Source: Leucoraja erinacea
Lineage: Eukaryota
Assembly: GCF_028641065.1 (NCBI RefSeq)
Contig: NC_073406.1
Span: 2,728,001 to 2,792,000 of the forward strand
DNA: 64,000 bases
Reading direction: 5' to 3'
The notes beneath the pieces are model-generated. The model did not search any database, was not told where the DNA came from, and worked only from the letters and a program-made list of their open reading frames with translations. The translations under genes and the position numbers were made by a program. Shown here one piece after another: positions 7,735 to 56,700 of this stretch (positions are counted from its first letter, which is position 1; each line of letters opens with the position of its first letter).

Positions 7735-10700
7735 GACTGCGTATCAAACAGGATCTGGTAACCAGTTACCCTCAGGTGGTGGTGGTTAGAGTTCCCACCC
7801 CTTCAGTACAGAATGACAGTGATATAACATTACTGCGCCACCTTGAGAAGATGGGCTGTCGTCTAGCCAATCGTTCACAGGCTATATTGCACTGTGTTAA
7901 CAAGTTCTGGACATTCCAGGAGCTAGCTGGTCATGGAATACCTTTACCTGACACTTTCTCTTATGGCAAGTATAAATGGATCACTTTGACCCTTCTGTAA
8001 ACTTCTAAGCAACATTTTATGTTTGTTGAATTTAGCAGCCAAGTAAACAATTAAAATCCTTTGACAAAGCTACTGTTTAGATACCACTGGTTCCTGTAAT
8101 CCAATGCTGTGACTAGTATTGTCAGTAGAGGGCATACCGTATTATTAAGTTGACAATTGACCATGGAAACAACACTAAATTTATAAAATGCATATGCTTG
8201 CCATTCTTGATCTTCAAGTTCTTTTTGATTATGAATATTGCATGTCCTTGAAGACTTCCAACCAATACTTTTCATGCTGTTTGCATCAAAGACTGAGAGC
8301 TGAAGCATTTGGGACCAGAATACCACACTTGTGTATGAAATGGCTGGGTGCAGTAATTTAAATGTAGTGTGGCCAGTGGAAGGCAAAGATTGTTTCAAAT
8401 TAAGATGTATGTATAATATTTTGTTTATGTTAAGTAAGGTTGGGACAGTGAGAGGACAGAATGGCAAAATATTTGTATTTTTAAAAACCACTGAAGTGGG
8501 GAATTGTGGATTAAAGCATTTGTAATCATGTTCCTATTTGCACAATAAATTTATATCTATTTTTACGACAGGTGGCCATGAAAACTTTTCAAAAATGATT
8601 GATGAAGCTGAGCCTTTGGGTTATCCAGTAGTAGTTAAAAACACACGAGGCCATCGAGGTACAAACTATTTTTCATTTTGTAGTTCAGCACAAGCACAGT
8701 AAAACACATATAAATTTAATTCCATCATTTTTATTAATCACTTATGTTGAGAACAAATGATCATTGATGACCATTTTATAAGCACAGATTGTGCAGAATT
8801 AGATTTTATTTGGAGCCCTCCTGCCTACCACAGGGTTACAGCGCAGTGTTATTGACACTAACTGGAATTTTGCCACATCAAACCCCAAAATAATACATCC
8901 TAGATAATACCTTGATATCTATTTTGTGAATCCTATCTAGAAACACACCATCTGGACCAGAGGCAGTGTCATTTTTAAAACTTATCTGTGGGAAAATTGT
9001 ATAGAGGAATATCATTGTTAGCCCAGAATAGGCTCAAGCAAAATTTATTAATGTCAGCATTATTATTAAGAATGGGAAAATGCGATGTAAAATGCTTCTC
9101 CAGACTATCTAATTCTATGGGACACCAGATATCTTCTGGCTGGTTTGCAGTCATATTTCCCACGTGAACTATGTGGGTTACGAATGGTCCTTGGGAACGG
9201 ATCTGTGCCGTATCCTAAGGAGAACTTGTAGATCACTCTAACAAATATTACCAGATGATGCTGACATTGCAAAATTTGGCCTGGCACATGCATGGAGCGT
9301 CAACTTAAGCACAGTTTTAGATTTCCTACCATAATACCATAATTTATATAATACGTACATTTTAGACTGATCCTTTCTTAGTTGCTATGCAGCAAAGTAA
9401 CAAATGAACAAACTTTTGGGAATTATAAAAGTCTCATTTTATTTTTAATTTCTGTGAGTAAGCCATGACAAATTATAATATTGAGAAACAAGGAACTGCA
9501 GATGCTGGTTTACCGAAAAGGACACAAAGTACTGGATTAACTCAGCAGGTCAGGCAGCATATCTGGAGAACAAGGAGAGGTCCATGTTCTCAAGAGATGC
9601 TGCCTGACCTGCTGAGCTACTCTTTACTTTGTATCTTAAATTATAATATGGAGTTGTCTTGTGGCTCTTGGTGCTACTTTTTAAAATTCTAAAATGTATT
9701 CTTTATGGTTCTGATAGAAATTATACATTGTTACACAGTGGAATAGATTGTAAACAGTGTTTACTTGTTTGTCATCCCCCCCTTCAGGTAAAGCAGTTTT
9801 CCTGGCACGGGACAAGCATCATTTGACTGATTTATCTCACCTAATACGACATGATGCTCCATACCTTTTCCAGAAATATGTAAAGGAATCCCATGGGAAG
9901 GATATCCGTGTGGTGATGGTAGGAGGCCGTGTAATTGGTGCGATGTTACGCTGCTCAACTGATGGAAGAATGCAAAGCAATTGCTCACTTGGTGAGATTT
10001 TGCACTTTAGAATGTTTGTACGAATACTTGTGGTTTCCCCATCAATATATGTTGGTAAAGTCAATATGAAAATTGATTATACAGACCTTAATTCCCAAGT
10101 TTAATAGCCCTGGGTTAAGATCAGTATATCAGGAAATGTTATGGAACTTTATCACAAAATAAAAGCTGTCCACAATTAAGTCTGACTTAATTTGTAATTG
10201 ATGCTTCCATAGAACTAAAATGGTTATAAGGGGGAGGGGGGGATGCCAGAGGTTCTTGCTTTGGCATTTGAGACAATCATAGAGTGTGGCCCAAATCCTT
10301 TGTGAACCAACATTGCTGGGATTCAGCCTGCATGAACTGATTATCCATTGATAATTTTTCACCGTTAACTGTACTGATTTTTAGCAGTAATTGTAGATCA
10401 GTTGATGGTGTCGAAAATTGAAACGTTGCTGATGTCCAATTTTCTTGAATACTGAACTGATATTTTAATTTTACCTTTGCTAGGAGGTGTTGGTGTGCTG
10501 TACCAGCTGAGTGAACAGGGCAAGCAGTTGGCGATCCAGGTTTCCAATATTTTGGGCATGGACATTTGCGGTATCGATCTTCTCAGAAAAGATGATGATT
10601 CTTTTGTAGTATGTGAAGCCAATGCAAATGTGGGTTTCAAAGCCTTTGACAAAGCTTGCAATCTGGATGTAAGCAGTATCATAGCGGACTATGCCCTGTC

Positions 10701-10980
10701 GTTACTGCCAAGCAGACTGACCAGGAAAATGTCACTTCTTTCTGTAGTTTCCAGTGCTAGTGAAACGAGTGAGCCGGAGGTAGGAGCTCCAGTCAGCGCC
10801 ATTCCGGAAGGTGTATTCACCATGAGTGTGGGATCAAGTTCCAGTGAGAGTGACCCCGAAATAGTGGAGGTCAGGGATTCTGACACTACTGCTTCCAGGT
10901 CCATGCACACTGTACTGCCTGAACCAGGCTACAACATGAACAATCTCATAAATACTGAAATTAAACTATTGAGTGAGTGA
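7735..10980 (+). CDS. RIMKLA: N-acetylaspartylglutamate synthase A (RimK-like ATP-grasp ligase), coding exons 2-5; exon 1 not found in the window
   Basis: Exons 7735-7965 ([26 protein letters not shown]...PDTFSY), 8572-8658 ([29 protein letters not shown]), 9788-9991 ([12 protein letters not shown]...MQSNCSL) and 10484-10980 (GGVG...NTEIKLLSE*). All junctions are phase 1 with AG acceptors. The residues [13 protein letters not shown] and LPEPGYN, plus adjacency to ZMYND12 and PPCS, favour RIMKLA over RIMKLB. Confidence 0.93.
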
Positions 10981-13900
10981 GATGAGAAAGCTCTACTAAT
11001 AGGTATAAACAGGGGTGCTTTCCCAGCTCAGCTGGAGAAAAAGGTAAAAGAATTAACAGAAGGGACACGATCTAATTTTTTTTTCTCCCATATTAATCAT
11101 TAAGTCTGAGTTTGTGGAAAAGCCCAGACTGATGACAACCATCAATCCACTCCAGGTGGGTTATGCTGTCTCCATGCCATTGAGGTGGATGGGTGGGAGT
11201 ATTCATTAAGCACACCATGTATATTTAATTCAGTAGCACTATAGGATGAGTTCAGTTGATTGGTTAAAAAGCATGGCCTTGCCAATAAGAAGGTAGCTGG
11301 TTAATGTCTGAAGGCAGAGACCAGTTATTGTTGTGGAGAAAACCCTCCCATCAGTGCTATTTGGGAAACGCATGGCCTTTGCTTGACACCTTTCTATGTT
11401 GACATGGTTGTTATCATGAACTTCCTGTATTTGGAATCAATCTCTTGCCTCTCTACAATGAACTGCCCATCCATGTTATTTTCCTTTCCTTAGATTAGGT
11501 GCTACTCATACCCCTTGTTTTTCTGTCTACTGTATTAACAGTGCTACTTGGACTGCACATAATTTAAGCATTTTTCAGGAATTTTGGTGGGAACAATTTG
11601 AACTGATGGGCTAATTAACAAATGGGTCAATTAGTATTCCGGAGCATAAAGTCACTAACAAACTTGGATATTTTAGCTGTCTTCACAGCTTAAGGATGGA
11701 GCAAATACATTAAATTAAAGTTAAATGATAGCACAAACCAAAAATAATATAAGCTGCAATTTCAATTCTTCTCTCCCTTTTTCTCGAAAAAGAAAATCTT
11801 TGAATTGTAAGGTTAAAATGCTGATGAGCAAATAAATAAATGTCTGCAGAAGATGAATGACATACAAATTAATTGGCAGTGTGAAAAATGACATGGCTAA
11901 TCATTTAATATTCTTAATGGGCATTGAAAGTTGGAATATGATGTTGCCTACCAGGCTAATTAATGGATGAAGAATGCATCTTGAGGGTATGGAAAAACAA
12001 GTTGCTAAGAAGAAGTTTATCTTTGTTTTAAAGTGAGAGAGCTACTGAGAGGAGATTCTATTATGAGATTGATGAATTCTTCATTTTACTTGTCAACTCA
12101 GTTGATTAACTTGTAGTTCCATAAAAACAATCTTAGGCATAACATTGAAGTATCAGGGAAATAAATAGGTTGAGTAGTCTCACGCTTTGATGGAGAAAAT
12201 CTTTTGGTTCATGACTGACTAAGTTAATATGTGGTTTGAATGCATTATGTTACAGCTCCAATGCTCTCCATCATTTTAATTTTGGTTGCTAATACTTGTA
12301 CCAACATTGCAGTTTAAGGTAAACATAGACTGTCCTCTTTGAAGCTTGTGTCCCCAGTGTTTTTACCCTGAATAATATTGTTAAAGTTATGGGTGAAGTG
12401 TTGAAATGCATATCTGCATTTAACCTGCGGATTTAATTGGCGAAATGCACAAGGTGCAGAATGCATAGAGTTTAGTAAGAACTAGAAAATTATCATTTTA
12501 CATGATTGTTTGCAAATTGGATGTTTATATCTCAAAATATTGATTATCTGTCAGGTGGGTAATATCCACAAAATGTGCGAATACAGAGGATTGACTGAAT
12601 TATTTCAGGCATGCCAGAAGTCAGCTCCAACTTCTTGAACAATTGTGCTTCTGCTGTGAAGAGATAAAGTAATTGTATTTATAAATTATATCTTCCAGTA
12701 TAATTCGCACAACGTTGCCATCAAGTTGTTCTTTTCAAATGTCAGTAATTGTTGGTGAGATTCAGTGCACATTTCTGATTGTGTGACTTCTGGCGGTGTG
12801 TGTAAATGTCAGCAAGCCCAAGTTCAGACACTTTAAAAGTACTAGTATTTACAAGGTAGTAACTTGATTTTAATTGAATCTTAGTTGAATCATAAGCTTA
12901 TTTCACCATACGGTTATTAATACTGGCAATTTTAAACAAGAGCCATCAGCATATTTAGCGATTGTGTCATGAAAAATCAATTAAAATGGCTCTGTTAAGT
13001 GGCAGCTGCTATGTCGGGTGAGAAGGTACATACTAACCTAGTCAATTCATTAAATATACCCATTTAAGAAACAGATAATTATTGTAGTATTTAAAACAAA
13101 TATTACATTGAAGTAACTTGATATCTTGAGTTATATGTTGACTAAAAATCTCGAAGCAGATGCAAATAATTTTGCATATTAGCTCTAGACGGTTGAGTGC
13201 ATTTACGCGGAAGATAGTATGGCACCAATATGACTGAGCATATGTGTATAGAGCGTTACATTTGACTTTACTGTGCCTGGGCTAGAGGGACAAGGCAATT
13301 AACCTCAGCAGGAAAGTATGAACAGTAACAAAAGATAAAAGCAGATTTGATTTTAATTTCTCCACTGGTATATGTAATATTTTGCTTTTGACTCCAAGTC
13401 AATTAGCCCACTAACGTTTGCTAATCAAGCTTGAAGTTGAATTGCTGGAGGGAAGAACCATCACCTTGTCTTCGGGGAAGTAAAGATGAGGGAGAAAATT
13501 CAAAATTTAAAACCACTTTTGCGAAGAAGTTGTATAATCTCAACAGGGGACAGTAACTTTTATTTGCAGGTAACAACGTTCATTGCAAAAACTGTTAAGC
13601 TTTCATAATCGTTCTCTTTTTCCAAACACAGAACTTACCAATGTTCTTTCTAAAGGAGTTATTTGATTTCCCTGTAAATATATTTTAAGAATAACAAGGT
13701 TTTTATCAAGATATAAATGTAACTGAATAAGTAAGGTATGCTTTAACAGACACAGTTAATGACCCCATTCTTTGTTTTCTTTGACTATTGTTACTTGTAA
13801 ATAGTTTGCTATCTCCTGCAAAATTGTGCTTCACAAATTTTGAAATTTCTGTCATCTATGTTAATGTCCAAGATTGTGATAAATGGGTGGGAGGCTTCTG

Positions 13901-32600: not shown

Positions 32601-34970
32601 ACAAGTTGTGCCTTACTGTGCTCTCGTTCTATTGTTGAGCTGAGGAAAGGCAGTGGTGTTCGTACCGGAATCAGAAGCTGGCAAATCTTCTCATGGATTC
32701 CATGCCAATCTGCCTCTTGGTGCGCAATATCACTGTGAGAAGACAGGGATAGGCGTTTAACCTTGAGAGGAACATTCTTCATTCTTGATTAGTACAGGTG
32801 TCAGAGGTTACGGGGAGAAGGCAGGAGAATGGGTTTGTACTCGGCTTGTATTCGCTAGAATTTAGAAGATTGAGGGGGGATCTTATAGAAACTTACAAAA
32901 TTCTTAAGGGGTTGGACAGGCTAGATGCAGGAAGATTGTTCCCGATATTGGGGAAGTCCAGGACAAGGGGTCACAGTTTAAGGATAAAGGGGAAATCCTT
33001 TAAGACCGAGATGAGAAAAACATTTTTCAAACAGAGAGTGGTGAATCTCTGGAACTCTCTGCCACAGAAGGTAGTTGAGGCCAGTTCATTGGCTATATTT
33101 AAGAGGGAGTTAGATGTGGCCCTTGTGGCTAAAGGGATCAGGGTGTATGGAGAGAAGGCAGGTACAGGATACTGAATTGGATGATCAGCCATGATCGTAT
33201 TGAATGGCGGTGCAGGCTCGAAGGGCCGAATGGCCTACTTCTGCACTTATTTTTTATGTTTCTATGAGGGAGAGATAAATCAGCTATAATTGAAAGGAGG
33301 AGTAGAGTTGATGGGCCAAATGGCCTCATTCTGCTCCTATCACTTATGACCATATACCATTCACTCGTTGGCACAGCTAATAAATACTGGAAGTATCAAA
33401 GATATGTTCTTTATCAGTAGAAAGTTTTAATATTTTATTTAGTTCAGAAAACAACCCCATTTTAATGGATAAGAATTGGAATTGTTTTCTTTGAAATAAA
33501 AACTTGCATTTGTCTACACATTCAATTGATTTGACCAGATTTGAAGTTCATACATTTCTTTTCAAAAAGAAAACTTTTATTCTTTAGAAGTAATTCATTA
33601 CCAGATAAAAATAATATTTTTAGCGACTAAAATAATTACATTTGTCTTCAACTATGCAATAGATTTTTTTACATTAGACCTCCACCAACACCACAACCTA
33701 TGGCCACACAGCAACTGTACCTCCAATTATTAAATCTAATGATTCTTATTGCCTTATCTATGATGGTATCTATGGTGGTGAATCTGTGGAATTCATTGCC
33801 ACAGAAGGCTGTGGAGGCCAAATCAATGGATATTTTTAAGGGATAGATAAATTCTTGATTAGTGCCAGTGTCAGGGGTTATGGGGAGAAGGCAGGAGACT
33901 GGGATTAAGATGGTGAGATAGATCAGCCATGATTGAATGGCGGAGCAGACTCGGTGGACTGAATAATTCTGCTTCTATCACATGATCTTATTTGTTGTTT
34001 GTTTACTCTATTCCTTGGTAAGATGGACATTTTGGCGATTGCAATTTAAAACAAAATTGAATTGGAGTCCAGCTGTTCTCTTTAATACCTCATCTACAAA
34101 AGTCCAGAGTGTTTTATTGTCATGTGTCCCAGATAGAACAATGAAATTCATACTTGCAGCAGCACAACAGAATATGTAAACATAGCACACTGTAGAACAA
34201 TACAATAAACGAGAAAAATAAGTCCAGTGTGTGTATATTATACACACATAAGATAGATACAAAATGCTGGACGAACTCAGCGGGATGTTTTGTGTCAAGA
34301 TCCTTCTTCAGACTGAGAGTCAGCGCAGACGGAGACATAGAGATATGGAAGGGTAAGGTGTGAAAACACAGATCCAAGGGGACGATGATAAAGGAAATGT
34401 AGAACGGTTAGCTGAGGGGAAGATGACAACGAGGCATACAATCAGTAAAATTTAATCAGGAGGACAGTGGAACTGGCTGGAGAACTAGGATGGGGTGGGA
34501 CATAGAGAGAGAGAAAGCAAGGGTTACGAAGTTAGAGAAATCAATATTCATACTGCTGGGTTATAAGCTGCTCAAATGAAATATGAGATGTTGTTCCTCC
34601 AATATTCGGTGATATATATATATATATATGTTCACACACACACACACATACTCATAAATCATATAAATACAAATAATAATGATGCAAAAAAAACAAAATC
34701 AATGCTCCCGAGTCCATGTAGTTTTGGAGGTCCTAGTGCTTAATAGCCTGATGGCTGGAGGGTAGAAAGATGTGTTATAAATATAACACATCACAAATCA
34801 AAGCTACTTCTGTTTGGTCAGCAGCCCACCTAGTTTAAGAAAGCCTCAACTCACCAGTAATAAGTCACCCTGCACCGGGAGCACATAATATGGGCGGTTT
34901 TTTGGCACATCTCGCACTCCAGTGTGACCCCCTTGGGATTAGCAAGCGGATAAACAGAAGTACTTAACAT
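20673..34970 (-). CDS. ZMYND12: Zinc finger MYND domain-containing protein 12, 8 coding exons, 385 aa
   Basis: Exons 34970-34855 (MLSTSVYPLANPKGVTLECEMCQKTAHIMCSRCRVTYYC, MYND finger), 32732-32591 (DIAHQEADWHGIHEKIC), 30826-30655, 29424-29255, 28237-28115, 26980-26854, 25003-24858 (DEAQEAEA) and 20834-20673 (ATEYGELAL...NTC*). All introns are GT-AG with consistent phases; total 1158 nt. AATAAA on the minus strand at 20542-20547. Confidence 0.93.
20910..21203 (-). mobile_element. Rex1/Babar-like LINE 3' fragment
   Basis: The minus strand encodes PSGKRHKSMKTHTSRFR, resembling the Rex1/Babar ORF C-terminus. Its 3' UTR recurs at ~26470-26700, 27390-27590, 40595-40700 and 63520-63720. Confidence 0.6.
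21467..21606. other. Assembly gap (140 N)
   Basis: Run of N, flanked by Penelope-like repeat sequence. Confidence 0.99.
22827..23005. mobile_element. Fold-back (inverted) Penelope-derived short insertion
   Basis: ~70-bp inverted arms centred on CAACGTTTTGGGTCGAAACGTTG. 16-bp TSD TATTTAAAATAATGTT at 22811-22826 and 23006-23021. Confidence 0.8.
23411..24191 (+). mobile_element. GC-rich ~780-bp non-autonomous retroposon with TGACAATTAAA-(TGTATCT)n tail
   Basis: CpG-rich body with no credible ORF. Its 3' part is shared with 62141-62864 (TTTATT(G)GCCTTCCATCACAG...TGGATGTTTATGTAAA) and it ends in a tandem tail. Confidence 0.6.
25831..25858 (+). ncRNA. Minimal type I hammerhead ribozyme motif in a Penelope-derived repeat
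   Basis: CTGAAGA-A-GGGT-TTCG-GCCC-GAAA-CG-TC: CUGANGA core, 4-bp stem II, GAAA, palindromic ACGU stem III and a GUC cleavage triplet. Confidence 0.65.
28845..29119 (+). mobile_element. ~275-bp retroposon with (GAT)n tail (possibly RTE-related), nested in an HE1-like SINE
   Basis: 9-bp TSD TTTGTGGGT at 28836-28844 and 29120-29128; tail GATGGTGATGATGA. The RTE relationship is inferred. Confidence 0.6.
31022..31328 (+). mobile_element. HE1-like tRNA-derived V-SINE
   Basis: B box GGTTCGATCC, central V-domain-like block (GAGTTTGTACGTTCTC...GGTTTTCTC) and a LINE-like 3' end GGCCTGTTTCC. Confidence 0.8.
31711..31941. mobile_element. PIF/Harbinger-type MITE
   Basis: TIRs AGGGCCTGTCCAACTTGGGCGT / ACGCCCAAGTGGGACAGGCCCT with TAA duplicated on both sides (31708-10, 31942-44). 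CpG-rich interior; it interrupts an old LINE tail. Confidence 0.8.
32356..32560. mobile_element. Fold-back Penelope-derived insertion near the ZMYND12 exon 2 donor
   Basis: Inverted arms around hammerhead remnants. ~17-bp TSD AAATA(T/C)AGATGCTAGGT at 32339-32355 and 32561-32577. Confidence 0.75.
32836..33265 (+). mobile_element. CR1/HER1-type LINE 3' fragment
   Basis: Encodes [18 protein letters not shown]...RVVNLWNSLP and ends in a TTTCTATG tail. Near-identical to 36600-37045 and 37605-37912. Confidence 0.85.
34252..34602 (-). mobile_element. Penelope-like element 3' fragment (end of GIY-YIG ORF, 3' UTR, degenerate hammerhead, terminal repeat)
   Basis: Minus strand 34602-34528 reads LEEQHLIFHLSSL*PSSMNIDFSNF, typical of the end of PLE GIY-YIG domains. 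It is followed by CTGAAGAAGGATCTTGACACAAAACATC and the common terminal repeat. Confidence 0.75.
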
Positions 34971-35046
34971 GGCGAAAGCTCGGGAGGTCAGCTCGTTTCT
35001 GCAGCACTCTCAGCTTCTCAAATGCGGCCTTACTGACGACTGGCAG

Positions 35047-35526
35047 ACGTTGCTAGGGAACGGGGACACGTTGCTAAGGAGTTGGGACACGTTGCTAGGG
35101 ACTTGCTGCACGTTGCTAAGGAGTTGGGACACGTTGCTAGGGACACGTTGCTAGGGACGGGACACGTTGCTAGGGACACGGGACACGTTGCTAGGGACTT
35201 GCTGCACGTTGCTAAGGACGGGACACGTTGCTAGGGACTTGCTAGGGACTTGCTGCACGTTGCTAAGGACGGGACACGTTGCTAGGGACTTGGGACACGT
35301 TGCTAAGGACGGGACACGTTGCTAGGGACTTTCTACACGTTGTTAGGGAGTTAGGACAAGTTGCTAAGGACTTGGGACACGTTGCTAGTTGCTAGGGACT
35401 TGCTACATGTTGCTAGGGAGTTGGGACACGTTGTTAGGGAACGGGGACACGTTGCTAGGGAGTTGGGACACGTTGCTAAAGACTTGGGCCACGTTGCTAG
35501 GGAGTTGGGACACGTTGCTAGGGACT
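35047..35526. repeat. ~21-bp minisatellite (ACACGTTGCTA(G/A)GGA...) of X-box-like motifs upstream of ZMYND12
   Basis: About 22 copies of GTTGCTA between 35049 and 35514, mostly 21 bp apart. Confidence 0.9.
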
Positions 35527-36431
35527 TTCCTCCGGTCCCTGAACCTGCCGCACTCCTTAGTGCCTCACATACCTAAATAACACAACACAAATCAGAACTA
35601 CTATTAAAGGGGAAATCTAAACGTTTTGATATCAACGTGTCATTGTAATGACTTTGAATAGAAATTGCAATCAGGTCTGAAAGCTCTGTGTAGGAAGGAG
35701 CTGCAGATGCTGGTTTATACCAAAGGTAGACACCAAGACAAGAGCTGGAGCAACTCAGCGGGTCAGGCAACATCTCTGGAGAACATGGATAGGTGACATT
35801 TTGGGTCGAGACCCTTCTTCGGTCTGAAATATAGAGAAGTCCAGAACAAAACAGGGCCGGCACCAGATGACCTCAGGAAGGGTGGAGCCCACAATGGTCC
35901 ATTGTTGGCTGGGGAGGATGTGCTAATGACAGGGATACAAGGACGCCAATAGTGGAACTGAATCTGAACCCTTCGTCTCGACCCGGAACATCACCCATTC
36001 CTTCCCACCATAGATGCTGCCTGTCCCGGTGAGTTACTCCAGCATTTTGTGTTTATCTTCGGTTTAAATGAGCAAGTGTGTCAATCGTGTGTTATGTCAT
36101 ATGTCCCAGATAGAATCTTACTTGCAGCAGCACAACAGAATATGTAAACATAGTACCTTGTAAACAATATAATAAACGAGAAAAAAAGTTTAGTGTGTAA
36201 ATATATATACACATACTGCAGTTCCTTCCTACACAACCTCCCTCTGCTGTGTTTCTTTCTAATGAACAGTGTGATTGAAGAAGGGTCTTAACCCGAAACA
36301 CCGCCCATTCCTTCCCTCCAGAGATGCTGCCTGATCCTGACCTGCCAGAGGAGGTAGTTGAGGCTGGTACATGAATAGACAGGTACATAGTTAGACAGGT
36401 ACATGGTACATGGTACATTGAGTATAGGAGT

Positions 36432-37045
36432 ATAGGATTTGAGCATAGGAGCAGGGGGGTTCTACTGCAGTTGTACAGGATCTTGGTGAGACCACACCTG
36501 GAGTATTGCGTACAGTTTTGGACTCCTAATCTGAGGAAGGACATTCTTGCCATAGAGGGAGTACAGAGAAGGTTCACAAGACTGATTCCATGAGATGTCA
36601 GGACTGGATAGACTTGGTTTGTACCCGCTAGAATTTAGAAAATTTAAGGGGGGATCTTATAGAAACTTACAAAATTCTTAAGGGGTTGGACAGGCTAGAT
36701 GCAGGAAAATTGTTCCCGATGTTGGGGAAGTCCAGAACAAGGGGTCATAGATTAAGGATAAGGGGGAAATCTTTTTGGACCGAGATGAGGAAAACATTTT
36801 TCACACTGAGAGTGGTGAATCTGTGGAATTCTCTGCCACAGAAGGTAGTTGAGGCCAGTTCATTGGCTATATTTAAGAGGGAGTTGGATGTGGCCCTTGT
36901 GGCTAAAGGGATCAGGGGGTATGGAGAGAAGGCAGGTACAGGATACTGAGTTGGATGATCAGCCATGATTATATTGAATGGCGGTGCAGGCTCAAAGGGC
37001 CGAATGGCCTACTCCTGCACCTATTTTCTATGTTTCTATGTTTCT
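36432..37045 (+). mobile_element. CR1/HER1-type LINE 3' fragment
   Basis: Encodes [18 protein letters not shown]...RVVNLWNSLP and ends in a (TTTCTATG)n tail. Confidence 0.85.
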
Positions 37046-37946
37046 ACATGGTACATAGGTAGACAGGTACATGGATGGGACAGGTTTGGATGGGATCTGG
37101 ACCAAGCGCAGGCAGGTGTGAATAATGTAGCTAGGCTTTTTTTAATTCAAAAAATGTATTAAATTATTTTAAAAATAATAATGTTACACTACAATAAAAC
37201 AAACCAGGCCCCACCTCCATAATATAATACAAATAAATATCCTTAATAAACTACTGTACACTTATCTTACATTCCTTATCAAGGATGCATTCAACACCCT
37301 GCAGAAGCTAGGACATTGTTGGCCGGTGTGGGCAAGTTGGGCCGAAGAGCCACTGTGTGTGTGGACTCTGTGACCCGCTAAGATACTCCAGGGTACACAA
37401 AAATGCTGGAGAAACTCAGCGGGTGCAGCAGCATTTATGAGCGAAGAAAATAGGTAACGTTTCATTCCGAAACGTTACCTATTTCCTTCGCTCCATAGAT
37501 GCTGCTGCACCCGCTGAGTTTCTTCAGCATTTTTGTGTACCTTCGATTTTCCAGCATCTGCAGTTCCTTCTTAAACACGAGTTACTCCAGGACTCTGTCT
37601 GTCTCCAGAACAAAGGGGTCACAGTTTAAGGATAAGGGGGAAATCTTTTAGGACCGAGATGAGGAAAACATTTTTTACACAGAGAGTGGTGAATCTGTGG
37701 AACTCTCTGCCACAGAGGGTAGTTGAGGCCAGTTCATTGTCTATATTTAAGAGGGAGTTAGATGTGGCCCTTGTGGCTAAAGGGATCAGGGGGTATGGAG
37801 AGAAGGCAGGTACAGGATACTGAGTTGGATGATCAGCCATGATCTTATTGAATGGCGGTGCAGGCTCGAAGGGCCGAATGGCCTACTCCTGCACCTATTT
37901 TCTATGTTTCTATGTCACTCTCTGCAAGCCTTGCGGCTGGCGGAAC

Positions 37947-38094
37947 CAAAGATCTTATAGCAAATCTCTGCTATAAGATCACACAGAAAAGCTGGAGAAA
38001 CTGTGGAGTCTATGGAGCGAAGGAAATCTCTGCAAATCTCTGCTATAAGAGCAAATCTCTGCTATAAGAGCAAATCTCTGCTATAAGATCTTTG
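37947..38094. mobile_element. hAT-type MITE in the PPCS promoter region
   Basis: 16-bp TIRs CAAAGATCTTATAGCA / TGCTATAAGATCTTTG and 8-bp TSD GGCGGAAC (37939-46, 38095-102). The interior holds 19-bp tandem repeats and a Penelope remnant. Confidence 0.8.
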
Positions 38095-38099
38095 GGCGG

Positions 38100-38735
38100 A
38101 ACGTTCCACAAGGGGAATATTTCGGCGGCGGACGGAGTTTGAGGCGGAACGGGTTGTCATGGCGGCGGACGGAGATTGAGGCGGGACGGGTTGTCATGGC
38201 GGCGGAGGCGGAGGCTGAGGACGGGCCGGAATGGGACCAGTTCTTCTCGGACTGCGCGCCGCCGCCTAACGCGGCCGCCTCGGTGCGGGCGCTGGGCGAG
38301 TTCGCGGCGCAGCATGCGGAGCAGAGCAGGCGGCTGGTGCTGGTCACCTCGGGGGGAACTAAGGTGCCGCTGGAGTCGCGCACCGTGCGCTACCTCGACA
38401 ACTTCAGCAGCGGCTGGCGAGGCGCCGTGTCCGCCGAGCACTTCCTCCAGCTCGGCTACGCCGTGGTCTTCCTGCACCGGCAGCGCTCCCTCTTCCCCTT
38501 CTCCCGCCGCTACTCGGGCCTCAACCTGCTGGACGCTCTGAAGGCCGTGCTCGACGCCGGCACCGGCTGCTGGAGGGTGGAGGCTGACCAGGCCGCGCTG
38601 CCCGGCATCGTGCCAACGCTGCAGCGCTACGCCGCCGTCAGGGAGGCCGGACTCCTCCTGCCCCTCGAGTTCAGCACCTTGTCCGACTACCTGTACCTGC
38701 TCAGGGCGGCTGCCCAGGCCCTCCACCACAACGGT
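38100..38735. promoter_or_regulatory. CpG island over the PPCS start and exon 1
   Basis: High GC and CpG density compared with the CpG-depleted surroundings. Confidence 0.75.
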
Positions 38736-50700: not shown

Positions 50701-53700
50701 ATGACTGATTGTCAATGGTTCTTTGTAAGAACTGCCAGTCACAGACAAGAACAATGTCCCACTGATATTAATCAACAATACACTGTGCCAATTGCCAGTC
50801 ATACAAAACTCACATGAACATCTTGCTAACAAATGTTAATGGCACAGACACTCTTACGATCACAAGTCCAACAGAGGTTTCAATTTCTAACTTATCAGTT
50901 AATTAATTTCACCACGTGGTGAATGGCTAATAGACTGGACAATAGGCAGCTCCTCAATCTCCCTGTTCATCGTGTCCCGCAAAGGGCACAGATTCTCTTG
51001 TTACAGCAAATAAACTTACTTCAGGTACAGATGGTACTTTGTCTGCACATACTGGGCGTCCTGTGAAGTAAACAAAATTCACAATATGATCCGGTCACAC
51101 CTCACACCTCCCATCCCCGCCCTGTCACACAACGTGTTTGTCTTCTCATCATACCTTTCCTGCTGGGATCCTGCCACTCTGTACAGTCTCCATCAGTGGC
51201 TGCAACTCATCCCTCAATTCCACAAGCTGCAAGATTAATCAGAAATTGTTTTACTTGGCAGAATAACTTAAAACGCACGGTGGTGCAGCGGTTGAGTTGC
51301 TGCCTTAGGATTGGGTTCGATCCCGACTACTACGTGCTGTCTGTACGGAGTTTGCACGTTTTCCCCCCTTGACCTGCGTGGGTTTTCTCCAGGTTCTTCC
51401 CACACTCCAAAGACGTACAGGTTTGTAGGCCAATTGGCTTCAGTAAAATTGTAAATTGTCCCTAGCGTGTGTGCGCAGGATAGTGTTAGTGTACGGGGAT
51501 CGCTGGTCGGCGCGTCGAGGGGCCTGTTTCCTCGCTGTATCTCTAAACTAATCCTAAAATTTTTCACTGTACTTCGGTACACGTGACAATAAACTAAACA
51601 AACTACAAGTAACTAAAACAGAAAAGGTTCCACTTTCTTCCTTCCAAGGTGACTCGCAATGGGAAATAGTTCTACAATTGCAAACCTCAATTATTTTGCG
51701 CAAAGGGGGGGAAAAAAAAGAAAAAACTTGTCTAAACCATCACTATGCAGCACTTTCATATTTAAGAAATATATTGTGACAAATCGCTATGGCAATCGAT
51801 CAAAAGAAAAAAAAGTTGACATTTATCTTTCATTCTTATCCATGTTCACATTTAAGTTCAGTTTAATTTATCACATGTACCAAGGTACTGTGAAAAGCTT
51901 TTGTTTTGTGCTATCAAGATTTAAGATTTTTTAAGAAGGAACTGCAGACGCTGGAAAATCGAAGGTAGACAAAAGTGCTGGAGAAACTCAGCGGGTGCAG
52001 CAGCATCTATGGAGCGAAGGAAATAGGCAACGTTTCCTATTTCCTTCGCTGCATAGATGCTGCTGCACCCTCTGAGTTTCTCCAGCACTTTTGTCTACCT
52101 TTAAGATTTTTTTATTTTGTGAAGAACTATAAACTGAGCAGCGATGTCAAATCTGTGCTTTCCTGAAGCCAAGAAAATCAATTCATCTTTTATCCTTCAG
52201 TTTTTCTGTGCAAAAACAAGGTTTTCTGAAAAGAATATAAAGAAAAATGCGACTATAGGTTTCCCCCGATAACAAAATAACCAATTCCCTAGTTCCCTCG
52301 ATGCCAATGTTTGTACGGTTTGCTTAAATTCAATTGTTTGTCTTAATTCATTGTCTTTGCATCCTCCTACATTAATACACAATATGTTAAGTGGCCGCCT
52401 CTTATCCAGTGGTCGATCAGCTAAACAACATAATTTAATTTGGAAACATTAACTTCTATTCATGCATCAGATGAGACTTGATATCTAACGAGGAACTAAT
52501 GTGCACTACTACCATAAAATCTCAGTAAATCTTCATCAGAAAACACGATTTCCATCAACGAAATAATATTTCATGTATCGGCGTCATGTTAGGCCAAACA
52601 TATAAACATAGAAAATAGGTGCAGGAGTAGGCCATTCGGCCCTTCAAGCCTGCACCGCCATTCAATATGATCATGGCTGATCATCCAACTCAGTATCCTG
52701 TACCTGCCTTCTCTCCATACCCCCTGATCCCTTTAGCCACAAGGGCCACATCTAACTCCCTCTTAAATATAGCCAATGAACTGGCCCTCAACTACCTTCT
52801 GCGGCAGAGAATTCCAGAGATTCACCACTCTGTGTGTGAAAAATGTTTTCCTCATCTCGGTCCTAAAAGATTTCCCCCTTATCCTTAAACTGTGACCCCT
52901 TGTTCTGGACTTCCCCAACATCGGGAACAATGGTCCTGTTCCTGTCCTGTACTGTTCAATATTCTAATATTCTTTGTGGTTTAGAAATGAGTACCCAATA
53001 AAATAGATTTTTACCTCTGGAACATTACAATGCACTATTCTATTGCGCCTGTAATTTATGAATTTTCAACCTTATATATGTGGCATCTAATCTTAAGAAA
53101 ACACTAAAAAGAGTTGAATAAACATGAGTAATGTTAGAGATTTAGCTGACCTTTGCCCTGAAATCCTGCATGAGTTCCAGTAGCTCAGGTGACTCTTTCT
53201 TCAGCAGTTTCATCTTCTCTTTCTGGGACATTTTATTCAAATCTTTTTTAATTTTCAGGTCCTTTCCAGAATCTTTCTCTGCTTCCCGTTCTTGGGCAAA
53301 TGTCTAGGATGAGAAAACTCCACATAAGAATGGAGAATAAATAAATAAACCTGCGGACCTTCTTTTGAGAAAGACATGCGAGTGATCAGCAGACCTGTAC
53401 GTACTTCATCCCTGTTTCATCGTGCACAAGTTGGCAGAAAACATTGTTACCCGAATCCATGAAAATGTTCCAAGATTGCTAGCAGTCAGAGGTTACCATC
53501 GCTGATTACCCCGTCTTGGATATGTGTCAGAACCAGCAGTGAAGACAACATTGATTGCATTAGAACATAATTGTATGTGCGCATGTCAATTGCAGTTGAG
53601 AAAAGATGGGTTGGGGGAGAAAACAAATATCTGTTTTGGATAGATATGCAAAGGATCATTGAAGTCAGTCAGTCCATGGCAGAATGAATTTGTAGTTCAA

Positions 53701-56700
53701 AACCAAAAGAACATATTAGAGCCAAAAACAGCATTGCTTCTGTAAAATGAATCATAGCTTACAACTCTTCAAATATTGCAAAAGCACGCGGATATAAGGT
53801 GCGAAGGACAATAATGAAAATACCCAACATATCCATAAGTGTATATTTCAGAATGGGAGGATCAGTAACTGTAAGTAAGAGGGCCACAACACAGGAAAGG
53901 CCGATAATCTGGCCTCTCCTGCTGGACTGGCAAGTTTAATCACACAGAACCAGGATTGCCTTAAACCAATATGAATTTTAAAAGTGAGAGCACCACCACT
54001 ACATCTAGAGGACAAACATTACTGAATTATCTCAAAAATAAGTTGGCACGGAGCTATTGGAGTGGAGCGCCAGGAAAAGACAGGAAGCCAATCCCAGTAA
54101 TAATAACCACAAATTACTTGGGCATTTGCAATCTGGTGCAAAGGCTACTTCTGCACCTCCACACACACACACACACCCTGGTCGTTACCTGAAGAAGGTC
54201 GAGGCCAAAGTCATCCTCTGACAGATCCTCAGCCAGTCGTTTCTGAATGTTTATGGCTTCGAGTTCCTCCTCTTCAACCTCTGCCAGAGCTTCTGCCTGT
54301 TTCTTTCCACCTGCAAGTGTGTCAACAGCAAATGCCAAGTCAGACCACAATACATGTTTGCATCTCCTTGCAAGTACTCATACCTTCTCACAAGATAGTT
54401 GTGTACAAAAGCTCAAGCCTTTAAACTTTCCACCCAGGATTTTCATGTTGAAAGGGAGGAAATACAATTCCTAAACTGCTGTCAAAGAACACCAAAGAGT
54501 GAATCCAGACTAGGTCAGAGCATTGCCACAGTGCCACTCACAGACAAGCCTGACTTAAAGCACATTAAAACAAAACACAAAAGTCTGACTATCTTGCTAA
54601 AATACCAAAGGCATCGGTCTTGAAAAACACTATCTAAAATGGAATTGTCACATCTTGTGTTCATTCTGAGGACAGGGATCAATGCTGTTGACCCCGTGCA
54701 TTTCAAAACCACAAATACATCCATGCAAGCAACATAAGGAAGAAACCCGTCTCCCTCCCCCCGCTGAAGATGGCAAGTTACAGAACTTACGAGGAATCTC
54801 ATCAACGTAGTCGGTCTGGTAGTACGATTTCTTCCTCTGTCCCCAGGACAAAGCGCTGGGGAGGCCTGGAGGAGAAAGAGTGAAGCAACAATCAGTCTTA
54901 CTGCAAAGAAACCGATTCAGCATTTGCAGCAGTAACGTTGCACGTCGATTATTCTTAATTAATAGTAATGGAACATGGCAATATTTCTGCAAATGCCTCA
55001 GGCCAGGCTAAAGTTTGCAAAATAAATTAGTTCCATGATGCATTATACAGAATTCGATAACATCACAGCACAGCACTGACCATCCTCTCTTTTGCCCTCG
55101 AGATCACTGTCCATGTCAACCTCTTCCTCGCATTCATCATCCTCATCCTCCTCCTCATCATCATCCGAATCGGGAAGCTCCAGGGGCATCACCTCTTCCT
55201 GTTTTAGACACAGCAAGTCGTCAGCATTGATGTTTGAACCAATTAATGGTCAATAAATTCATTTCCAACAATATCGTTTTTGCTGCATTTAACCGAAGGG
55301 AAATAAGGCAGAAGGAAACATACAGCGGACCGTATCAGTTACAGAAATCAGAAGATGTTGTTCTTTTAATTCAGTGGAGGATCAAATTCCATAGTAAAAG
55401 CTACCACCAACACTGAAAGGTCCAGGAAAAACAAGCAGATTAGCATAATAAACAAGGGAATTGCATGCAGCCCTTTGGTTCAGCTCTCATGTTCAATATT
55501 ATTGGTGGAATTGCGAAAACCCCCTAACCCTCATTGACGGCTAAATAACAAGAATCTACTGATAGCAGCCTCAAATAAATGACTGAACATTCAGGGCTTC
55601 ATTGGAGTAGAGATTATGAAGTAAATCGAGTTAAATCAATAAAGTGTGATATTATGACTACTGATACAGCTGAAAGGACAAGAGATCTGTATTGGGAGAC
55701 TGCAATAGCCTTTCACTATTTAGGATGGACCAATGCAGCATAACAATGTCATATATAATACATCCCGATTGAGATAAAACACAGGTGAATGCTTTGAGAC
55801 AGCATGTGAGAGGCAAATTTAACTTGAATACATTTTCTGTTGTGCTACTGCAAGTAAGAATTTCATTGTTCTATCTGGGACATATGGCAATAAAACACTC
55901 TTGACTCTAGAGAGTAAAATACAGAGGTTACACCATACATGGAGCTGGCTATAACAGATAAAGCAGAGAAGATTAATGCAACATTATTTGTGATCAGGGA
56001 AAATAATTGTAACTGAAAAGGTGCCCCTAAATAATACTTTGCGAATGCTTTTGCTGCATTACATGCACTTTAGTCAGCCAAGAAATTATACAGCCGGCCT
56101 TATACACAGACAGCAGAAAATGCACGCAGAAATGCAACACCTGCAGATTTCTAGTGACAAAGGAAATGTTAAATTTTAATCTAGTTTATCAAGACCTTTG
56201 TTAATAGCTTACATAACGACTACTTTCTAGTAGGTTTGTTTGTAATGTAAGACTGTACAAAATGTAATTTTGTTCAAACCAAGCTGTTTGAATAACAATA
56301 AAAGGCATTCTATTCTACCTTAAAGAGTGAAAGTAAAAATACTGAGACAAGAGTGGTCTCAAGACTTGTGGAAAAACAAGCACATAAATGTTGGCAACTT
56401 TTTGAGCATAACATCGAGGAGGAAGTGTTGCAGAGATAGCATCGTTCAGATCAGGTGTTAAAGCAAGGTTTGTCTAGCCTCTCAAATGAATGAAAAAAAG
56501 ATCCTCAGTGTAATTTAAGAACAGCAAGGAAATTTTCCCAAGAGTCCCAACTCATTATTATCCCTCATATCATATGGTCATTATCACATTGCTGGATGTG
56601 TGCAGTTGCTGTGTGCAAGTCTGCTTCAGTGTCCCTACAACAGTGACAAGGGTTTGAAACCTTTTATCAACAGTAAAATGCCTTGTCAGGTTCCAAGTCT

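What the first reader, a model, noticed from the sequence alone, without database searches (positions are those of the whole stretch)
35047..35526. Minisatellite of ~22 RFX X-box-like motifs directly upstream of the ciliary gene ZMYND12
Seen: starting 79 bp upstream of the ZMYND12 ATG (34970), GTTGCTA(G/A)GGA repeats about 22 times, mostly every 21 bp (about two helical turns). The gene-proximal unit is GTTGCTAGGGAAC, a full X-box-like sequence. Established: RFX factors bind GTTGCYATGGCAAC-type X-boxes (CCTAGCAAC is the RFX5-type half site) and drive cilia and flagella genes; ZMYND12 is a flagellar/axonemal protein. Inference: the single ancestral promoter X-box has been tandemly amplified into a helically phased binding array, a possible expression-tuning VNTR.
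Basis: partly seen in the sequence, partly recalled or inferred. Interest (0 to 1): 0.7.

Follow-up and report, generated by a model that had tools for sequence, protein, structure and literature searches.

The report
Repeated RFX sites in skate promoter
In a skate, a short motif predicted to bind the cilia-gene regulator RFX is repeated 25 times just in front of the sperm-tail gene ZMYND12; unrelated repeats of the same motif sit at a dozen other gene starts, so this is likely one case of promoter DNA getting copied in tandem, and nothing yet shows that copy number tunes the gene.

Summary
The array is real: 25 cores over 35047-35526, the first 79 bp upstream of the ZMYND12 ATG; its exact unit occurs nowhere else in the genome search. 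Ten units read GTTGCTAGGGAC, close to human X-boxes shown to bind RFX1/2 (DYX1C1, ALMS1). Mouse Zmynd12 has an RFX1 peak at its start and falls in Rfx2 and Rfx3 knockouts, so an amplified ancestral RFX site is likely. Helical phasing: 7 of 24 spacings break it, and 29 such arrays show no 10.5-bp preference. The 'full' first X-box is not kept in two related species. No length variation or expression effect was shown. The array is also not special to cilia genes: at least 20 loci carry triple GTTGCTARG repeats with unrelated spacers (point-changed controls: 2 and 0), 12 of 33 fetched arrays lie at gene starts, and only 5 of 11 named genes are RFX1-bound in mouse. CCAAT boxes are amplified likewise. 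The scan found this before on other DNA (same gene in another skate; JAM3, ABI2). Verdict: a TRIB3-type promoter minisatellite, one of a recurring class.

The parts
35047..35526 (+). Minisatellite of 25 RFX half-site/12-bp X-box-like cores, mostly 21-bp units; reads CCTAGCAAC on the ZMYND12 strand; GC 55%, CpG o/e 0.85
35049..35061 (+). Gene-proximal unit GTTGCTAGGGAAC; 12 of 13 letters equal the EMSA-validated human DYX1C1 X-box probe core; not kept in this form in organisms E and F
34855..34970 (-). ZMYND12 first coding exon (ATG 34970, GT donor after 34855)
   Evidence: spliced contig ends at 34855
34971..35020 (-). ZMYND12 5' UTR as far as RNA covers it; coverage stops about 30 bp short of the first core (4 reads, one contig; weak)
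35530..38030 (.). Repeat-filled spacer (86% matches dispersed repeats) separating the head-to-head ZMYND12 and PPCS starts, which are about 0.4 kb apart in mouse
38032..38206 (+). PPCS promoter with its own tandem duplications: 19 bp x3 (38032-38088) and 37 bp x2.2 (38124-38206), the latter copying the start codon into a short upstream frame
38196..38733 (+). PPCS first coding exon
   Evidence: (Pfam DFP); gene name from recall plus mouse synteny

Best explanation
This is a promoter minisatellite of 25 RFX-type cores directly upstream of ZMYND12, likely grown by tandem duplication of the gene's ancestral RFX site and predicted to bind RFX1/2/3. Shown: the array, its place, its uniqueness of unit, its presence in six related organisms, and many independent arrays with the same core and unrelated spacers, about a third of them at gene starts. 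Inferred: an X-box like GTTGCTAGGGAC sat about 30 bp upstream of the transcript start; slippage or repair synthesis in this open, CpG-retaining promoter DNA copied a 10-21 bp piece holding it; unequal exchange then shuffled the unit types. The proximal copy or copies would do the ancestral job of RFX-dependent expression in sperm and motile-ciliated cells; distal copies would add binding with diminishing effect and are tolerated rather than selected for spacing. The same process multiplies other promoter motifs (CCAAT) and has duplicated pieces of the neighbouring PPCS promoter.
For: Mouse Zmynd12: RFX1 peak at +32 from its start, log2FC -1.44 (Rfx3-/-) and -1.82 (Rfx2-/-) (PMC7498320 supplement). 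10 of 25 units are GTTGCTAGGGAC; its reverse complement overlaps the ALMS1 X-box primer in 11 letters (PMC2913254); unit 1 matches the DYX1C1 probe at 12 of 13 (PMC5024701). Unit pair unique: 13 of 13 genome matches here. At least 20 non-satellite loci with triple GTTGCTARG against 2 for GTTGGTARG among 100 of 109 listed rows and 0 for GATGCTARG among 95 of 95. AK7 has 8 GTTGCTAGGGAC copies in the same place and orientation with a 27-bp unit. CpG-dense flank: 17 of 33 against 9 of 34 controls at the preset cut (p=0.046), 15 of 33 against 0 of 34 at a cut chosen afterwards. 5 of 11 named promoter-array genes are RFX1-bound in mouse against about 10% of genes (4 of 10 without ZMYND12, p=0.013; p=0.07 at a 17% base). 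Differences between organisms fall in the 7-bp core at 1 of 20 listed places (read off; not independent).
Against: No binding or chromatin data in skate. No unit matches the strict 14-bp palindromic consensus patterns tried (recalled patterns); 6 units are GTTGCTAAG and 2 GTTGTTA. 6 of 11 named genes lack a mouse RFX1 promoter peak. With the 13 loci of dispersed repeat families added (0 of 13 CpG-dense) the preset CpG test is 17 of 46 against 9 of 34, p=0.35, and the ZMYND12 flank itself scores only 6 CpG/100 bp. On C1-C8 the unique loci number 13 against 6 and 1 for the controls, a modest excess. No outgroup with a single site was seen, so the ancestral state is inferred from mouse ChIP only. 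The mutational mechanism is not tested.
Confidence: 0.6

Rival explanations
1. A selected, helically phased RFX enhancer array whose copy number tunes ZMYND12.
For: 17 of 24 spacings are 21 bp; core letters vary less than spacer letters within the array and between organisms; array kept in organisms A-F; an earlier unchecked note gives 24 copies over 482 bp in another skate; copy number raises activity at human TRIB3 (PMC7425993 abstract).
Against: Phase is broken by 7-, 11-, 14- and 19-bp units (R=0.30); modal periods of 29 arrays run 12-34 bp with R=0.08, 13 promoter arrays R=0.25; the 21-mer contains an 11-bp sub-repeat, which explains the period without selection; arrays are also in introns, exons and chromosome ends; mouse RFX-bound promoters mostly hold one site or 2-3 (PMC7498320 section 19).
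Confidence: 0.2
2. An ordinary G-rich minisatellite (TAGGG, telomere-like, quadruplex-prone) whose likeness to an X-box and place next to an RFX target are incidental; RFX does not bind most units.
For: 32 G3 tracts on one strand, none on the other; G4Hunter peak 1.36 in 25 nt; most of the 8049 genome matches come from a GTTGCTAGGGTTTAGA satellite at a chromosome end; 16 of 29 loci on C1-C8 belong to three dispersed families.
Against: TAGG-containing controls without the half site give 2 and 0 loci against at least 20; mean G4Hunter is only 0.63 and no short-loop quadruplex pattern; position coincides with the mouse RFX1 peak; GTTGCCATGG arrays without TAGGG are also at promoters (IRAK1BP1-, JAM3-like).
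Confidence: 0.15
3. The array came in with a transposon that carries RFX-like repeats.
For: Three dispersed families with triple half sites exist in this genome; Helitrons are known to spread minisatellites (PMC12001565 passages).
Against: The unit pair matches only here; both flanks are single-copy and conserved in related organisms; no element ends were seen beside the array.
Confidence: 0.05

Closest known systems
Human TRIB3 promoter 33-bp VNTR (PMC7425993; abstract and outline seen)
   Same: A conserved single transcription-factor site next to the gene start multiplied in tandem in one lineage.
   Different: TRIB3 has 1-5 near-identical copies, is polymorphic and is shown to raise expression. 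Here 25 heterogeneous copies of an RFX-type site, shared by several species, with no length or expression data.
RFX X-box promoters of ciliary genes: ALMS1 (PMC2913254, passages) and DYX1C1/DNAAF4 (PMC5024701, passages)
   Same: Same core sequence (CCCTAGCAAC strand), within tens of bases of the start; mouse Zmynd12 is RFX1-bound and RFX2/3-dependent (PMC7498320 supplement rows).
   Different: Those promoters carry one site; binding there is shown, here predicted.
Non-coding VNTRs that change site density, e.g. MAOA, SIRT3 (review PMC12776774, passages)
   Same: Promoter-proximal tandem repeat whose unit is a factor site.
   Different: The review does not mention RFX; a genome-wide bias for one factor's site is not described in the passages seen.

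Membership tests
Promoter VNTR amplifying a factor site (TRIB3 type) | Tandem array at the proximal promoter | tested here: met
   RNA cover stops about 30 bp before the first core (weak)
Promoter VNTR amplifying a factor site (TRIB3 type) | Unit holds a site that is functional and single in other lineages | tested here: inconclusive
   Mouse RFX1 peak at +32; no outgroup promoter sequence obtained
Promoter VNTR amplifying a factor site (TRIB3 type) | Copy number varies between individuals | tested here: inconclusive
   No contig spans the array; organism E lacks 21 bp at 35042, a between-species difference
Promoter VNTR amplifying a factor site (TRIB3 type) | Copy number changes expression | not testable with these tools
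   needs reporter or paired genotype/RNA
RFX X-box | Intact GTTGCYA half site | tested here: met
   22 of 25 cores read GTTGCTA
RFX X-box | Full 14-bp imperfect palindrome | tested here: not met
   0 units match the two strict recalled patterns; 2 match a relaxed one (35049, 35430)
RFX X-box | Likeness to experimentally bound short X-boxes | tested here: met
   12 of 13 to the DYX1C1 probe; 11-letter overlap with the ALMS1 X-box primer, whose full 12-bp box lies in a figure not readable here
RFX X-box | Bound by RFX in this organism | not testable with these tools
   no skate ChIP/EMSA
Helically phased site array | Spacings keep multiples of about 10.5 bp | tested here: not met
   7 of 24 spacings are not 21 bp, five of them clearly off phase plus 14 and 7; R=0.30; class-wide R=0.08
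Dispersed (transposon-borne) minisatellite | Same unit at many loci | tested here: not met
   13 of 13 matches at this locus

The most novel reading that the evidence does not exclude
RFX-bound sites are themselves seeds of tandem amplification in the skate germ line: binding opens the DNA, breaks or slippage there copy the site, and more sites mean more opening. This self-reinforcing loop has independently turned single X-boxes into arrays at ZMYND12, AK7, TBC1D19 and about ten other gene starts, in introns and even in the HPS6 coding exon, possibly because recombination in cartilaginous fish targets promoters rather than PRDM9 sites. The arrays would then be natural dose series for RFX-driven flagellar gene expression.
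Probability: 0.3. Interest if true: 0.7.

Novelty: new member of a known kind. Interest (0 to 1): 0.4.

Why it matters
The single locus is a clean but familiar promoter minisatellite. Its value is as one member of a countable class: independent arrays with the same factor site and unrelated spacers make it testable whether factor binding biases where minisatellites are born, and give a ready 1-to-25-copy series for RFX dose response at a gene needed for sperm flagella (PMC10629824 abstract). I found no paper on RFX-site minisatellites in six searches, judged mostly from listings.

Tried and rejected
The headline count 8049 against 5 was rejected as an enrichment measure: it is dominated by a chromosome-end satellite; loci were counted instead. 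Hairpin folding: z=-1.12, no stable structure. Copy number from contig depth: not usable, the tool's depth is no copy number and no piece spans the array; the first lay was swamped by dispersed repeats at both ends. No RNA holder listed. ETS motif x3: 0 matches, reversed control 7, so not every promoter motif is amplified. PRDM9 status: PRDM9-like SET exon in 3 copies on small scaffolds, no SSXRD match, no KRAB or long zinc-finger array recognised in 124 kb fetched; inconclusive, so the recombination route stays a guess (PMC5519329 passages note SSXRD loss in some cartilaginous fish). Zmynd12, Ppcs and Ak7 are absent from the testis RFX2 table of PMC4498915. Recalled motif names found no paper; the X-box letters of ALMS1 were not in the supplement searched. 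Genes at L023 and L035 could not be named. Control loci were scored by CpG only, not inspected by eye for gene starts. The PMC7498320 supplement is cut in storage, so absences there are not final.

Full report
Observation. The pattern GTTGCTARGGA occurs 20 times in the window, all between 35049 and 35524; shuffles give 0.04. Counting variants there are 25 cores in 19 unit types; 17 of 24 spacings are 21 bp, four are 19, and one each 14, 11 and 7. The gene on the minus strand starts at 34970; its first exon reads like a named skate ZMYND12, and a later exon matches that protein at 100%. PPCS starts at 38196 on the plus strand (Pfam DFP). The two are head to head, 3.2 kb apart, with 86% of 35530-38030 matching dispersed repeats; in mouse one RFX1 peak lies at +32 of Zmynd12 and -426 of Ppcs. 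Four RNA reads of run X24 and one spliced contig of X19 (RNA is a guess there) stop near 35020, about 30 bp short of the first core; this is weak but places the array upstream of the transcript.

Is it an RFX site? No unit fits the strict 14-bp consensus patterns I recalled; two fit a relaxed one. But 22 of 25 cores hold the half site GTTGCTA, ten read GTTGCTAGGGAC, and these resemble short X-boxes with shown binding: the DYX1C1 probe shares 12 of 13 letters with unit 1 and is supershifted by RFX1 and RFX2 antibodies (PMC5024701, passages); the ALMS1 box is 12 bp, bound by RFX1/2, and a primer at it overlaps the common unit in 11 letters (PMC2913254, passages; the box letters are in a figure, so identity is inferred). 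Mouse Zmynd12 is on the RFX1 promoter list and drops in Rfx3-/- (-1.44) and Rfx2-/- (-1.82) ependymal cells (PMC7498320, supplement rows and section 19); it is absent from the testis RFX2 table of PMC4498915 (supplement search). ZMYND12 is axonemal and needed for male fertility (PMC10629824, abstract).

Relatives. Contigs of six organism labels (A-F) cover the flanks and carry array units; none spans the array. Flanking contigs differ at 9 of 374 (C), 9 of 393 (D), 15 of 344 (E) and 16 of 335 (F) letters. E lacks 21 bp at 35042 and F lacks one A at 35060, so the 'full' first unit is not conserved; GTTGCTAGGGAC is the better guess for the seed. Of 20 listed difference places inside the array, 1 falls in the 7-bp core (read off by hand; unit swaps make these non-independent, and F also shows GTTGCTGGGG units in loose ends). 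No single-site outgroup and no length polymorphism were obtained.

Genome context. The unit pair matches 13 times, all here, so it is not a dispersed element. A triple half-site pattern gives 8049 matches against 5 reversed, but most belong to a 16-bp satellite at a chromosome end. By locus on C1-C8: 29 loci, 16 of them in three dispersed families and 13 unique, against 6 for GTTGGYADG and 1 for GATGCYADG. For the TARG subtype: at least 20 non-satellite loci genome-wide against 2 and 0. I fetched 33 unique-type, 13 family-type and 34 control loci. A CpG-dense unique flank within about 600 bp was found for 17 of 33, 0 of 13 and 9 of 34 at the preset cut of 6 CpG/100 bp (p=0.046; 0.35 with family loci pooled) and for 15 of 33, 0 of 13, 0 of 34 at a cut of 9 chosen afterwards (p=3e-6); loci without an unmasked flank (6, 2, 3) were counted as misses, and some dense flanks are exons. 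Others lie in introns (TTBK-, CAMK2-, calpain-, MDGA-, RAC-, integrin-like), in coding exons (HPS6, ZNFX1-like) or near chromosome ends. With ZMYND12, 5 of 11 named genes are on the mouse RFX1 promoter list (Zmynd12, Ak7, Tbc1d19, Irak1bp1, Jam3) and 6 are not; the base is about 2213 of 22296 (my reading of Figure S10); 4 of 10 gives p=0.013, or 0.07 at a 17% base. So the class leans towards true RFX targets but is not ciliary as such. CCAAT boxes are amplified too (1119 against 405 reversed); an ETS 9-mer is not (0 against 7). The PPCS promoter in this window has its own 19-bp and 37-bp duplications.

Phasing. Coherence at 10.5 bp is 0.30 over this array; modal periods of 29 arrays span 12-34 bp with R=0.08, and 0.25 for the 13 promoter arrays. 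The 21-mer holds an 11-bp sub-repeat. Phasing is therefore not a feature of the class and is broken here.

Mechanism. Most likely (0.6) an ancestral X-box was copied in tandem in open promoter DNA and the unit types were then shuffled; the proximal copies would keep the RFX-dependent function and the rest are tolerated. Binding, ancestry and mutational route are inferred. A selected phased enhancer (0.2), an incidental G-rich repeat (0.15) and a transposon origin (0.05) are the rivals. The idea that recombination targets promoters here is open: a PRDM9-like SET exon is present, SSXRD was not found, and its loss is reported for some cartilaginous fish (PMC5519329, passages).

Comparison and novelty. 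It looks like the human TRIB3 promoter VNTR (PMC7425993, abstract; the lead came from earlier notes), but polymorphism and dose effect, which define that case, are untested here. Six literature searches (listings, plus passages of PMC12001565 and PMC12776774) showed no report of RFX-site minisatellites. The scan's own unchecked notes describe the same locus in another skate and similar arrays at JAM3, ABI2 and other promoters. Verdict: new member of a known kind, interest 0.4; the class-level seeding idea would deserve 0.7 at a probability of 0.3.

Noticed in passing
window 38032-38206: PPCS promoter has a 19-bp triplication and a 37-bp duplication that copies the start codon, creating a 6-codon upstream frame at 38159; each 37-bp copy holds GTTGTCATGG, a weak X-box-like half site.
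   Followed up: partly
L017:4880-5110 (G000:C9 near 13062460): AK7 promoter carries 8 perfect GTTGCTAGGGAC copies in a 27-bp unit, same side and orientation as at ZMYND12: an independent amplification at a second motile-cilia gene.
   Followed up: partly
L015:2390-5141: About 2.7 kb of X-box-like repeats (about 84 cores, 18-bp mode) directly upstream of TBC1D19 exon 1.
   Followed up: partly
L022:4895-5060: RFX-like repeats inside the HPS6 coding exon, in frame, encoding GNSPSN-type repeats; a similar in-frame array in a ZNFX1-like exon (L027:4933-5059).
   Followed up: no
L024:4213-5285: ACP2-like promoter array of X-box plus GC-box units (20 bp), interrupted by dispersed-repeat insertions, so the array is older than those insertions.
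   Followed up: no
L045:4316-6030: CNPY4-like exon 1 appears duplicated together with a 25-bp array of GTTGCTAGGGGCAAC, a near-palindromic X-box, next to TAF6.
   Followed up: no
L026:5399-10000 (end of C21): Chromosome-end satellite GTTGCTAGGGTTTAGA (16 bp), telomere-like and holding an RFX half site in every unit; probably the source of most of the 7462 matches. GTTGCCATGG arrays lie near the start of C9 (L036, L037).
   Followed up: partly
L121:9738-9959, L126:2524-2841, L129:4782-5003: Three near-identical PRDM9-like SET exons on small scaffolds; a zinc-finger exon lies upstream in L119:4997-5308, suggesting tandem or misassembled copies.
   Followed up: partly
window 8500-11000 (+) and 53100-55300 (-): RimK-family gene (RIMKLA-like) and a UTP3/SAS10-like gene (name recalled) flank the pair.
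   Followed up: no
L030:5289-6101: RPS3A-like retrocopy just upstream of the IRAK1BP1 promoter array (name recalled).
   Followed up: no
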